This document shows, in pieces, positions 18,001 through 21,000 of a stretch of DNA of 64,000 nt. Position numbers: made by a program. Source of the stretch: Escherichia coli (lineage in GTDB: Bacteria; Pseudomonadota; Gammaproteobacteria; Enterobacterales; Enterobacteriaceae). The stretch lies in NCBI RefSeq assembly GCF_048403405.1, contig NZ_CP183129.1; one strand, 5' to 3'. Each line of letters opens with the position of its first letter. The first letter of the stretch is position 1.

Positions 18001-21000
18001 TTTCGTACAGGGCAATGGCGGCAGCGTTTGAAGCACGGACTTCCAGCCATAGTGTCGCCACGCCGCGTTTTTCCAGTTCGTCGATCAGATGTTCCAGCAG
18101 CGCCCTTCCCAATCCCTGACGCTGATAGTCAGGATCGACCGCAATATTGAACAATGTAGCTTCATCCAGCACCACTTGCGTAATCGCAAACGCCGCCATT
18201 TTGCCGTTTTGCGTTAACTGAAAGTTGAGATAACGCTCGCCCTGGTTGCTGGCAAAGGTTTTTTCACTCCACGGAAAGGCGTGGGCGCGTTGTTCAATGT
18301 GGTAAGCCGCTGGTAAATCAGTCGTTTCGAGGGAAGAAATCGTGTTCATATGTGCAAATTTGTTGCCATAACGCGGCGCGTGCCGTTGGGTTTGCCCGTA
18401 ATTCGGTGAGCGCCGGTGATGCCACCTGAGCGCCTTCCAGTGATAGCGGTTCGTCAGTACCCAACCGCCAGCTGTTGCAGCGACTGCCTTGTGGCAGCAT
18501 CGCGATTTTTTCTGGCGTCAGTTGCAGCACTTGATCGGGGCTGACGGTTAATGCGCGCAGAACATCGCTCACCAGAGGATCGGTCAGGGCGGGAAGATCG
18601 TTTGCCACCATCACCAGACGGACGTGTGCCGGGATCGCAATCGCAATCTCCCCCTGCAACGCGCCAGGGCGACGCAGCGACCACTGGGTAATGCCCAGTT
18701 GCTGTAACTGCCAGTCTCGTCGGGATGTCATAGCGAATCGCTCCTGTTGTCAGGGGCGCAAATATAGCAAATTCGTCGATACCGCGCCAACATATGGCTA
18801 TAATCGCCGCCAGTATCAATTGAGGAGCATTCCATGTCTGCATTTACCCCGGCAAGTGAAGTCTTGCTGCGTCACAGTGATGATTTCGAACAAAGCCGTA
18901 TTCTGTTTGCCGGAGACTTACAGGATGACCTGCCCGCGCGTTTAGATACCGCGGCCAGCCGTGCTCATACCCAGCAATTCCACCACTGGCAGGTATTAAG
19001 CCGCCAGATGGGGGATAACGCCCGTTTCAGTCTGGTCGCCACGGCGGATGATGTCGCAGATTGCAATACGCTGATTTACTACTGGCCGAAGAACAAACCG
19101 GAAGCCCAGTTCCAGTTGATGAATTTACTTTCTCTACTGCCGGTGGGCACGGATATTTTTGTCGTTGGCGAGAACCGCAGCGGCGTGCGCAGCGCCGAAC
19201 AGATGCTGGCAGATTATGCGCCGTTGAATAAAGTCGATAGCGCCCGTCGCTGTGGCCTCTATTTTGGTCGTCTGGAAAAACAACCGGAATTTGATGCCGA
19301 TAAATTCTGGGGCGAATACAGCGTCGATGGCCTGACAGTCAAAACGCTGCCTGGCGTGTTTAGCCGCGACGGTCTGGATGTCGGTAGCCAGTTGCTGCTC
19401 TCGACGTTAACTCCGCACACGAAAGGTAAAGTGCTGGATGTCGGCTGCGGCGCGGGCGTGCTTTCGGTTGCCTTTGCGCGCCATTCACCGAAAATTCGTC
19501 TCACTCTGTGCGATGTCTCTGCACCAGCGGTAGAAGCCAGCCGCGCAACACTTGCGGCCAACGGTGTTGAAGGTGAAGTCTTTGCCAGTAACGTCTTTTC
19601 CGAGGTGAAAGGTCGTTTTGATATGATCATCTCCAACCCGCCGTTCCACGATGGGATGCAAACCAGCCTCGATGCGGCGCAAACGCTGATTCGCGGCGCG
19701 GTGCGTCATCTTAATAGCGGCGGCGAGCTGCGAATTGTAGCGAACGCCTTCCTGCCTTACCCGGACGTGCTGGATGAGACATTTGGCTTCCACGAAGTGA
19801 TCGCGCAAACCGGGCGCTTCAAGGTGTATCGCGCCATTATGACCCGCCAGGCGAAGAAAGGTTGAGTATCTGATATCTGTCGCCGCATACCGTGTCGGAT
19901 GCGGCGTACACGCCTTCTCTGACCGACAAACGAATTATCCACAATCCGCTGATGGACATTTTTCCAGCAATTACACCTCCGGCGATAATTAACTATTGAC
20001 GAAAAGCTGAAAACCACTAGAATGCGCCTCCGTGGTAGCAATTCTTTTTAAGAATTGATGGTATGCGAAGGTGGCGGAATTGGTAGACGCGCTAGCTTCA
20101 GGTGTTAGTGTCCTTACGGACGTGGGGGTTCAAGTCCCCCCCTCGCACCAAAAACCACGTTGATATTGCTCGCACTGGGCGAAGGTGGCGGAATTGGTAG
20201 ACGCGCTAGCTTCAGGTGTTAGTGTTCTTACGGACGTGGGGGTTCAAGTCCCCCCCTCGCACCAAACGAGGCGATATCAAAAAAAGTAAGATGACTGTGC
20301 GAAGGTGGCGGAATTGGTAGACGCGCTAGCTTCAGGTGTTAGTGTCCTTACGGACGTGGGGGTTCAAGTCCCCCCCCTCGCACCAATTATCTTTACTTCC
20401 TTTCTTGTTTCTTCCCTGTTTTATCATCCCTGATTCAAATTCATTAGCATCAGCATGATGCCAGCACTAAGCGCCAGGCACGATGGCAGCAAAACGTAAT
20501 GCCGCAACTGTTTGTGATACAACATCACCGGCGTCAATATTAATCCCATCAGAATGACAATCCGCCACTGATCCGGCGATAAATCCGCATACATCAGCCC
20601 TGCAATCAGCAATCCCGGCAGCAACACTCCCCAGCCACTGCCCAGCGTACGTTGCAACATGGTTTCATCTCTTTCATTGATAATGATAACTAATATCATA
20701 TGATAATTTTTATCATTTGCAAGCCAGAGAAATCCCTTGCTATCGGGTAAACCTATCGCTAGGATTAGCAATCATTATCATTTAGATTACTATCACGATT
20801 ATGGCCTATCGTTCCGCACCGCTCTATGAAGATGTTATCTGGCGAACGCATCTCCAGCCGCAGGATGCTGGGCTTGCACAAGCCGTACGGGCGACGATCG
20901 CCGAACATCGTGAACATTTGCTCGAGTTTATCCGCCTGGATGAACCCGCTCCGCTTAACGCCATGACGCTGGCGCAATGGTCATCACCGAATACGCTAAG

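What the first reader, a model, noticed from the sequence alone, without database searches (positions are those of the whole stretch)
20661..20800. Paired Fur boxes controlling divergent yjjZ and fhuF
Two to three Fur-consensus-like sites (20679-20697, 20700-20716, 20768-20786) lie in the 140-bp divergent region, consistent with iron regulation of both genes. This is expected biology and is recorded for completeness.
Basis: partly seen in the sequence, partly recalled or inferred. Interest (0 to 1): 0.2.

Follow-up and report, generated by a model that had tools for sequence, protein, structure and literature searches.

The report
Known Fur operators between yjjZ and fhuF
The 140-bp gap between the E. 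coli genes yjjZ and fhuF holds the already published binding sites for the iron repressor Fur, a strong one over the yjjZ promoter and a weak one over the fhuF promoter, so the finding is real but ordinary.

Summary
The window is E. coli. yjjZ (20424-20660, minus strand) and fhuF (20801-21589, plus strand) diverge across exactly 140 bp. The Fur-like sites are real.

- **Site 1:** 20679-20697 matches the 19-bp Fur consensus at 16/19. It is the only hit with 3 or fewer mismatches in the 64 kb.
- **Site 2:** 20701-20715 matches TGATAATnATTATCA at 13/14, the best match in the window.
- **Site 3:** the best register is 20766-20780 (11/14), which is weak on its own.

All of this is published for K-12. 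DNase I footprints map to window 20672-20724 (high affinity) and 20754-20807 (low affinity). A Fur ChIP-exo peak maps to 20693-20708. yjjZ and fhuF belong to the core Fur regulon in nine strains.

Using published transcription starts, the strong cluster covers the yjjZ promoter from -35 to +1. The weak site covers the fhuF -10 and start.

Both blocks are 95-98% conserved across 50-53 Enterobacteriaceae loci.

The new detail is minor. Most genera carry a GGDEF gene between the two promoters, and Escherichia lacks it. The pairing is therefore probably a derived juxtaposition of two separate operators.

Verdict: confirmed, already known, low interest.

The parts
20424..20660 (-). yjjZ coding sequence (78 aa, DUF1435 small membrane protein)
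   Evidence: ORF and translation. Pfam DUF1435, E=8e-36. RefSeq annotation of identical-context genomes and of K-12 b4567.
20661..20800 (.). 140-bp divergent yjjZ-fhuF control region
   Evidence: Present as one contiguous stretch in 5424 of 5426 complete E. coli genomes.
20672..20724 (.). High-affinity Fur-protected region (published K-12 footprint 'fhuF1', mapped onto the window)
   Evidence: Chen et al. 2007 Table 3 gives 4603763-4603815. Mapped with window = 20801 + 4603686 - x; the map is checked by the yjjZ start 4603827 landing on 20660. The strongest predicted site (22.3 bits, 4603779) maps to 20708, the centre of 20701-20715.
20679..20697 (.). Fur box 1 (19-mer, 16/19). K-12 and most genomes have C at 20691, giving 17/19.
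   Evidence: The block 20679-20702 has mean column identity 0.98 in 50 Enterobacteriaceae loci. The window's T allele is found in 705 genomes and the C allele in 4217.
20683..20699 (.). First of two tandem 17-nt palindromic Fur units (ATGATAACTAATATCAT); its core 20684-20698 scores 12/14
20700..20716 (.). Fur box 2, the second 17-nt unit (ATGATAATTTTTATCAT); its core 20701-20715 scores 13/14. It fills the yjjZ -35/-10 spacer.
   Evidence: The ChIP-exo peak 4603779-4603794 maps to 20693-20708.
20717..20722 (-). yjjZ promoter -35 hexamer TTGCAA
   Evidence: Promoter scan. The same promoter is described in PMC10301672. The block 20713-20723 is 0.93 conserved.
20695..20700 (-). yjjZ promoter -10 hexamer TATGAT
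   Evidence: These columns are nearly invariant in the alignment.
20687..20687 (-). yjjZ transcription start (published K-12 position 4,605,777, mapped)
   Evidence: PMC10301672. Mapped with window = 20660 + 4605804 - x, using the K-12 annotation.
20737..20742 (+). fhuF promoter -35 hexamer TTGCTA (inferred)
   Evidence: It lies 17 nt upstream of the -10 that fits the published start. TTGC is nearly invariant in 53 loci. It was not called by the scan tool because the promoter matches only 8/12.
20760..20765 (+). fhuF promoter -10 hexamer TAGGAT (K-12: TATGAT)
   Evidence: It lies 5-6 nt upstream of the published start. Column identity is 0.97. TAGGAT context is found in 4437 genomes and K-12 TATGAT in 416.
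20770..20771 (+). fhuF transcription starts (published K-12 positions 4603717/4603716, mapped)
   Evidence: Chen et al. 2007, Figure 5 legend.
20766..20780 (.). Fur box 3 core (TAGCAATCATTATCA, 11/14), overlapping the fhuF start
   Evidence: The conserved block 20766-20788 has identity 0.95. The orthologous box is present 35-46 nt upstream of fhuF in 48 of the 49 loci scanned (not in L020).
20754..20807 (.). Low-affinity Fur-protected region (published K-12 footprint 'fhuF2', mapped)
   Evidence: Chen et al. 2007 Table 3 gives 4603680-4603733.
20742..20778 (.). Possible OxyR operator overlapping the fhuF promoter (weak consensus match, 13/20)
   Evidence: Consensus scan (one of 12 positions in 64 kb scoring 13 or more). 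OxyR repression of fhuF is cited in PMC8115020. The primary paper was not available.
20801..21589 (+). fhuF coding sequence (262 aa ferric-siderophore reductase)
   Evidence: Pfam FhuF E=1e-25 and FhuF_C E=6e-7.

Best explanation
The region holds two back-to-back sigma-70 promoters. Each is occluded by its own Fe2+-Fur operator.

The yjjZ promoter has its -35 at 20722-20717, its -10 at 20700-20695 and its start at 20687. It lies entirely inside a multi-dimer, high-affinity Fur cluster: overlapping boxes at 20678-20698 plus 20700-20716, with a footprint over 20672-20724. When iron is sufficient, Fur excludes RNA polymerase and yjjZ is essentially silent.

The fhuF promoter has its -35 at 20737-20742, its -10 at 20760-20765 and its start at 20770/1. 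It carries a single weaker box over its start site (20766-20780, footprint 20754-20807). This gives leakier, more easily titrated repression.

Shown by published experiments on the K-12 allele: Fur binding to both regions, the affinity ranking, both transcription starts, in vivo occupancy, and derepression in delta-fur. Shown here: the sequence matches, their statistical excess, their positions relative to the promoters, and their conservation. Inferred: the occlusion mechanism, that each operator acts mainly on its own promoter, and that the window's allele behaves like K-12.
For: Sequence matches and statistics come, and the tandem 17-mers and 46-bp palindrome. Published DNase I footprints show two regions, one protected at 50 nM Fur and one only weakly. 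A ChIP-exo peak lies over the strong cluster, and both genes are in the core Fur regulon of nine strains, with yjjZ the most derepressed gene. UPEC CFT073 also has yjjZ in its direct Fur regulon. The yjjZ start is seen in vitro and in delta-fur but not in wild type. The yjjZ promoter hexamers were found by the scan. Conservation is strong: Fur block 1 scores 0.98, the fhuF -10 0.97 and the fhuF Fur block 0.95, against 0.42-0.73 for flanking non-coding columns and 0.75-0.83 for the first ten codons. In about 40 loci where a GGDEF gene separates the two promoters by about 1.4 kb, the strong boxes stay with yjjZ and the weak box stays with fhuF, with almost no other Fur-like boxes between them. 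This supports one operator per promoter. Salmonella yjjZ reporters are repressed by iron.
Against: No binding or expression data exist for this window's own allele. It has one more mismatch in box 1 (T at 20691) and a weaker fhuF -10 (TAGGAT) than K-12. Site 3 is only marginally above chance by sequence alone. The conserved fhuF block extends beyond a canonical Fur box (to 20788) and overlaps a possible OxyR site, so part of its conservation may serve other factors. Whether the strong cluster also contributes to fhuF repression in E. coli has not been tested.
Confidence: 0.93

Rival explanations
1. Cooperative pair: the strong cluster, centred 47-99 bp upstream of the fhuF start, is needed for fhuF repression as well. 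Fur would nucleate there and spread or loop to the weak box, so the two clusters act as one operator for both genes.
For: Fur is known to extend footprints at higher concentrations ('secondary footprinting'). The two -35 hexamers are only 14 bp apart. The weak box is an inverted copy of the strong one (88% over 17 nt).
Against: In most Enterobacteriaceae the two sites are about 1.4 kb apart, yet the weak box is still almost invariant. It is therefore maintained without the strong neighbour. The footprints are two distinct regions separated by an unprotected gap that maps to 20725-20753.
Confidence: 0.25
2. Chance resemblance: A+T-rich promoter DNA mimics GATAAT repeats and Fur plays no role.
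For: The region is 69% A+T, and site 3 alone is only about p=0.02-0.18 against shuffles.
Against: The cluster exceeds composition-matched shuffles at p of 0.0014 or less. It holds the top three 19-mer and top two 15-mer scores of the whole window. It is near-invariant across the Enterobacteriaceae loci sampled. Published footprints, ChIP-exo and delta-fur data all support Fur binding.
Confidence: 0.02
3. The conserved fhuF-proximal block (20760-20788) is primarily an operator for another regulator, such as OxyR, and Fur binding there is incidental.
For: There is a 13/20 match to the OxyR consensus at 20742-20778. OxyR is reported to repress fhuF. Conservation continues 8 nt past the Fur core.
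Against: A low-affinity Fur footprint covers exactly this block. fhuF is derepressed in delta-fur in nine strains. The OxyR match is weak and its left half (20742-20759) is poorly conserved (0.72). The two roles are not mutually exclusive.
Confidence: 0.1

Closest known systems
The E. coli K-12 fhuF-yjjZ control region itself (Fur footprints fhuF1/fhuF2 of Chen et al. 2007; the fhuF::lacZ Fur titration reporter)
   Same: It is the same locus, with the same 140-bp spacing, the same boxes and the same promoters. Identity is 186/191 nt.
   Different: There are five SNPs. T instead of C at 20691 adds a mismatch in box 1 and is a minority allele (705 versus 4217 genomes). G instead of T at 20762 gives the fhuF -10 TAGGAT, which is the majority and ancestral form; K-12's TATGAT is found in 416 genomes, mostly laboratory K-12 derivatives.
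Bidirectional Fur-controlled regions of the enterobactin cluster (fepA-fes, fepB-entC, fepDGC-entS)
   Same: These are divergent iron-regulated promoters with Fur operators overlapping the promoter elements. fepB-entC also has two distinct protected regions, one per promoter (and established literature cited there).
   Different: Here one partner (yjjZ) has no known iron function. The two operators differ strongly in affinity. The comparative data also suggest they became neighbours only in Escherichia.
Extended Fur operator of the aerobactin (iucA) promoter, with arrays of GATAAT hexamers
   Same: Several overlapping Fur boxes give a footprint of about 50 bp.
   Different: The cluster is shorter, and it is organised as two tandem 17-nt palindromes forming a 46-bp imperfect palindrome centred on the yjjZ -10.

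Membership tests
Fur operator (Fur box) of gamma-proteobacteria | Match to the 19-bp consensus GATAATGATAATCATTATC or to the 7-1-7 motif TGATAATnATTATCA | tested here: met
   16/19 at 20679-20697. 13/14 at 20701-20715 and 12/14 at 20684-20698. Site 3 scores only 11/14 at 20766-20780.
Fur operator (Fur box) of gamma-proteobacteria | More matches than composition alone would give | tested here: met
   5000 dinucleotide shuffles of the 140 bp gave p=0.0014 (19-mer), 0.0002 (15-mer) and 0 for four hits. Site 3 alone gave p about 0.02.
Fur operator (Fur box) of gamma-proteobacteria | Position overlapping the -35, -10 or start of the regulated promoter (repression by occlusion) | tested here: met
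   yjjZ -35, -10 and start (20722-20687) lie inside the strong cluster. The fhuF start 20770/1 lies inside box 3 and the -10 inside the low-affinity footprint.
Fur operator (Fur box) of gamma-proteobacteria | [quoted passage not shown] | not testable with these tools
   Published for the K-12 allele: DNase I footprints and a gel shift. The window's allele, which has SNPs at 20691 and 20762 inside the footprints, has not been tested.
Fur operator (Fur box) of gamma-proteobacteria | In vivo occupancy, and derepression of the adjacent genes in a fur mutant | not testable with these tools
   Published: ChIP-exo peaks and delta-fur RNA-seq in nine E. coli strains, CFT073, and a yjjZ start seen only in delta-fur or in vitro.
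Fur operator (Fur box) of gamma-proteobacteria | Conservation of the site in orthologous promoters | tested here: met
   Across 50 and 53 loci from the Enterobacteriaceae genera sampled, mean column identity is 0.98 (20679-20702) and 0.95 (20766-20788), higher than in the adjacent codons.
OxyR operator | Four ATAG/CTAT elements spaced at 10-bp intervals (ATAGnTnnnAnCTAT-N7-ATAGnTnnnAnCTAT) | tested here: inconclusive
   Best local match is 13/20 at 20742-20778. Eleven other positions in the window score as high or higher. The primary paper (PMC95352) is not held.

The most novel reading that the evidence does not exclude
The 'paired' arrangement is a derived, Escherichia-specific architecture. 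An ancestral GGDEF diguanylate-cyclase gene lying between yjjZ and fhuF was deleted, with the junction near 20723-20730. This placed the strong yjjZ Fur operator within 100 bp of the weakly controlled fhuF promoter. The move may have changed fhuF iron regulation, for example through Fur spreading or looping. In addition, the K-12 fhuF promoter used in classic Fur titration assays carries a laboratory-lineage -10 up-mutation (TATGAT) that is not typical of the species. The probability given is for a functional consequence. The deletion scenario itself is much more likely, at about 0.85.
Probability: 0.2. Interest if true: 0.3.

Novelty: already known. Interest (0 to 1): 0.08.

Why it matters
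It matters little as a discovery. This is one of the best documented Fur-controlled regions in E. coli, and the fhuF promoter is the reporter of the standard Fur titration assay.

It also adds three small points that could matter to people who use this promoter:

- The strong operator belongs to yjjZ and the weak one to fhuF.
- The two became neighbours only in Escherichia, after loss of a GGDEF gene.
- K-12's fhuF -10 hexamer is an atypical allele. Quantitative behaviour of the K-12 reporter may therefore not represent wild E. coli.

Tried and rejected
- **Primary OxyR-fhuF paper.** Zheng et al. 2001 (PMC95352) is not held. The OxyR site could only be approached with a consensus scan, which was inconclusive.
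- **Fur weight matrix.** The supplementary tables of Chen et al. 2007, which I wanted for building a proper matrix, are not held. I used consensus mismatch counts with shuffles instead, so no bit scores of my own are given.
- **Promoter scan and fhuF.** The generic promoter scan did not report the fhuF promoter, which matches only 8/12. I placed it from the published start site and from conservation. The same scan's plus-strand hit (TTGATA 20677 ... TATGAT 20704) was rejected as a fhuF promoter because it does not fit the published start.
- **Long mechanical ORF.** The 115-aa ORF 20424-20771 (TTG start) running through the Fur cluster was rejected as the yjjZ gene. Annotation, Pfam coverage (residues 1-75 of the 78-aa form) and the drop in conservation upstream of the ATG all support the 78-aa protein.
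- **RNA families.** Rfam found no RNA family in the intergenic region.
- **Supplement table row.** In the text copy of Gao et al.'s MG1655 peak table, fhuF sits beside a peak about 10 kb away. I treated this as a row shift and did not use it.

Full report
**What is in the window**

The window is Escherichia coli. A 1.4-kb stretch around the finding is present in 5424 of 5426 complete E. coli genomes and is annotated tRNA-Leu, yjjZ, fhuF, bglJ. The K-12 record shows the same gene order. yjjZ occupies 20424-20660 on the minus strand (78 aa, Pfam DUF1435). fhuF occupies 20801-21589 on the plus strand (262 aa, Pfam FhuF and FhuF_C). Over 191 nt centred on the gap, the window differs from K-12 MG1655 at five positions: 20662, 20691, 20729, 20762 and 20795.

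**Checking the observation**

- **Site 1 (20679-20697).** GATAATGATAACTAATATC matches the classical 19-bp Fur consensus at 16/19. It is the only place in 64 kb with three or fewer mismatches, against 0.01 expected.
- **Site 2 (20700-20716).** This contains TGATAATTTTTATCA at 20701-20715, a 13/14 match to the 7-1-7 form of the Fur box and the best in the window. The second best (12/14) is an overlapping box at 20684-20698.
- **Repeat structure.** The repeat finder independently shows two head-to-tail 17-mers, ATGATAACTAATATCAT (20683-20699) and ATGATAATTTTTATCAT (20700-20716). The whole cluster forms a 46-bp imperfect palindrome at 20677-20722.
- **Site 3.** The best registers are 20766-20780 (11/14, with a perfect right half ATTATCA) and 20761-20779 (12/19).
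- **Statistics.** I shuffled the 69% A+T intergenic region itself 5000 times, preserving dinucleotides. The observed best 19-mer score was reached in 0.14% of shuffles, the best 15-mer score in 0.02%, and four hits of 11/14 or better in none. Site 3 alone is only marginal, at about 2% for the 15-mer and 18% for the 19-mer.

Sites 1 and 2 are strong, and site 3 needs outside support.

**Published evidence for this exact locus**

Chen et al. 2007 (PMC2189734) performed DNase I footprinting of Fur on a K-12 fragment spanning the whole gap. They found two protected regions. fhuF1 has high affinity (4603763-4603815, protected at 50 nM Fur). fhuF2 has low affinity (4603680-4603733). Their predicted sites score 16.1, 20.8 and 22.3 bits in the first region and 14.6 and 9.3 bits in the second.

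I mapped these using their coordinates for the fhuF start (4603686, window 20801) and the yjjZ start (4603827, window 20660).

- fhuF2 maps to 20754-20807, covering site 3.
- Their strongest site, 4603779, maps to 20708, the centre of my 13/14 box.
- The fhuF transcription starts they show (4603717/6) map to 20770/20771.

Gao et al. 2023 (PMC10164565) list a Fur ChIP-exo peak in MG1655 at 4603779-4603794, which maps to window 20693-20708. In W3110 a peak is assigned to both fhuF and yjjZ. They place both genes in the core Fur regulon of nine strains. The log2 change in delta-fur is 5.5-11.3 for yjjZ, the top gene of the list, and 2.0-8.5 for fhuF. yjjZ is also in the direct Fur regulon of uropathogenic CFT073.

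The yjjZ start was mapped at K-12 position 4,605,777, which maps to window 20687. It is seen in vitro and in delta-fur but not in wild type (PMC10301672). In Salmonella, yjjZ reporters are repressed by iron.

**How it most likely works**

On the minus strand the scan tool finds TTGCAA (20722-20717), a 16-nt spacer, then TATGAT (20700-20695). This places the start 7 nt downstream of the -10, exactly at the published 20687. The high-affinity footprint therefore covers the yjjZ promoter from about -37 to +16. Box 2 fills the spacer, and box 1 covers the -10 edge and the start.

For fhuF, the published start implies a -10 of TAGGAT (20760-20765) and a -35 of TTGCTA (20737-20742) with a 17-nt spacer. 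Box 3 covers -5 to +10, and the low-affinity footprint covers about -17 to +37.

The simplest mechanism is promoter occlusion at each promoter by its own operator. This is an inference, although it is the standard mechanism for Fur. It fits the data: the gene with the strong multi-site operator (yjjZ) is silent in wild type and the most derepressed in delta-fur. The gene with the weak operator (fhuF) is the leaky, easily titrated one.

An OxyR consensus match of 13/20 lies at 20742-20778. OxyR is reported to repress fhuF. I could not get the primary paper, so this stays a lead.

**Comparative evidence**

A scan of one genome per species found 52 loci encoding FhuF relatives across Enterobacteriaceae. 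I aligned the yjjZ-proximal and fhuF-proximal sequences and scored mean column identity for each segment.

| Segment | Window coordinates | Mean column identity |
|---|---|---|
| yjjZ, first ten codons | 20631-20660 | 0.83 |
| yjjZ leader | 20661-20678 | 0.73 |
| Fur block 1 | 20679-20702 | 0.98 |
| yjjZ -35 block | 20713-20723 | 0.93 |
| Beyond the yjjZ promoter | 20724-20735 | 0.42 |
| fhuF -10 | 20760-20765 | 0.97 |
| fhuF Fur block | 20766-20788 | 0.95 |
| Rest of the fhuF leader | 20789-20800 | 0.66 |
| fhuF, first ten codons | 20801-20830 | 0.75 |

Both operators are therefore under stronger constraint than the neighbouring coding sequence.

**An unexpected detail**

yjjZ and fhuF are only 140 bp apart in every Escherichia locus: the E. 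coli representative, two unnamed Escherichia sp. genomes, E. whittamii and E. albertii. In about 40 loci from other genera they are about 1.4 kb apart. These genera include Citrobacter, Salmonella, Klebsiella, Raoultella, Enterobacter, Lelliottia, Kosakonia, Siccibacter, Trabulsiella and Kluyvera. Where I listed the ORFs (Salmonella and Klebsiella), a 348-354-aa gene lies between them on the fhuF strand, and the Salmonella one carries a GGDEF domain (E=4e-47).

From memory this is the Salmonella diguanylate cyclase STM4551. I did not test that identification.

In those loci the strong boxes stay next to yjjZ, 18-42 nt from its ATG. The weak box stays 35-46 nt upstream of fhuF. Almost nothing Fur-like lies between them.

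Leclercia and Silvania also lack the gene, but with a different junction (155-166 bp). The most parsimonious reading is that the gene was lost independently in Escherichia and in Leclercia/Silvania. The E. coli 'pair' would then be two ancestral, separate operators brought together, with a junction near 20723-20730. This supports one operator per promoter. It leaves open whether the strong cluster now also influences fhuF.

**Allele notes**

The window's fhuF -10 (TAGGAT) is the family-wide consensus. Its 41-nt context is found in 4437 of 5426 E. coli genomes. K-12's TATGAT context is found in 416, mostly laboratory K-12 derivatives.

Conversely, the window's T at 20691 in box 1 is the minority form, with 705 genomes against 4217 for C. 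It costs one consensus match, 16/19 instead of 17/19.

**Verdict**

The system is already known in detail. Interest is low. The only additions are the assignment of each operator to its promoter, the deletion history and the allele frequencies.

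Noticed in passing
L009:1316-2380, L040:1348-2394, and the corresponding gap in about 40 loci; absent at window 20723-20730: In most Enterobacteriaceae yjjZ and fhuF are about 1.4 kb apart. 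In the two loci whose ORFs were listed (Salmonella, Klebsiella) a 348-354-aa gene lies between them on the fhuF strand, and the Salmonella one has a GGDEF domain. All Escherichia loci lack it, as do Leclercia and Silvania with a different junction. The E. coli divergent arrangement therefore looks like the product of a deletion.
   Followed up: partly
window 20760-20765 (SNP at 20762): The fhuF -10 hexamer is TAGGAT here, in 4437 of 5426 E. coli genomes, and in the family consensus. K-12's TATGAT, a better -10, occurs in 416 genomes that are mostly K-12 laboratory derivatives. The classic K-12 fhuF reporter is therefore atypical.
   Followed up: partly
window 20691: T instead of the common C inside Fur box 1 (705 versus 4217 genomes) adds one mismatch to the consensus. 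The same T occurs in the E. coli representative genome (L002) and in Salmonella enterica arizonae.
   Followed up: partly
window 1-17100: A lambdoid prophage lies next to yjjG. It includes an integrase at 15603-16826 (minus strand), an antiterminator, RusA, KilA-N, a methyltransferase, cspB/cspF and a holin. Only 71 of 5426 genomes share at least 80% of this 19-kb stretch.
   Followed up: partly
window 1319-1758 (-), 8464-8551 (-), 8576-8652 (-): Rfam hits inside the prophage: a cspA-type thermoregulator leader upstream of cspB, a C4 antisense RNA and an isrK Hfq-binding RNA.
   Followed up: no
window 20064-20385 (+): Three tandem tRNA-Leu(CAG) genes (leuQ, leuP, leuV) lie between rsmC and the 3' end of yjjZ, converging on yjjZ. 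Some E. coli genomes align to this stretch in two pieces, so the repeat unit may vary in copy number.
   Followed up: no
window 20677-20722: The strong Fur cluster is a 46-bp imperfect palindrome (23-nt arms, 78% complementary) centred on the yjjZ -10 hexamer. The weak fhuF box (20764-20780) is an 88% inverted copy of 20678-20694.
   Followed up: partly
window 20695-20722: PMC10301672 writes the yjjZ promoter as TTGCAA-18-TATGAT. In the sequence the spacer between these hexamers is 16 nt.
   Followed up: yes
window 20742-20778: A 13/20 match to the OxyR four-element consensus overlaps the fhuF promoter. OxyR is reported to repress fhuF, but the match is not distinctive within the window.
   Followed up: partly
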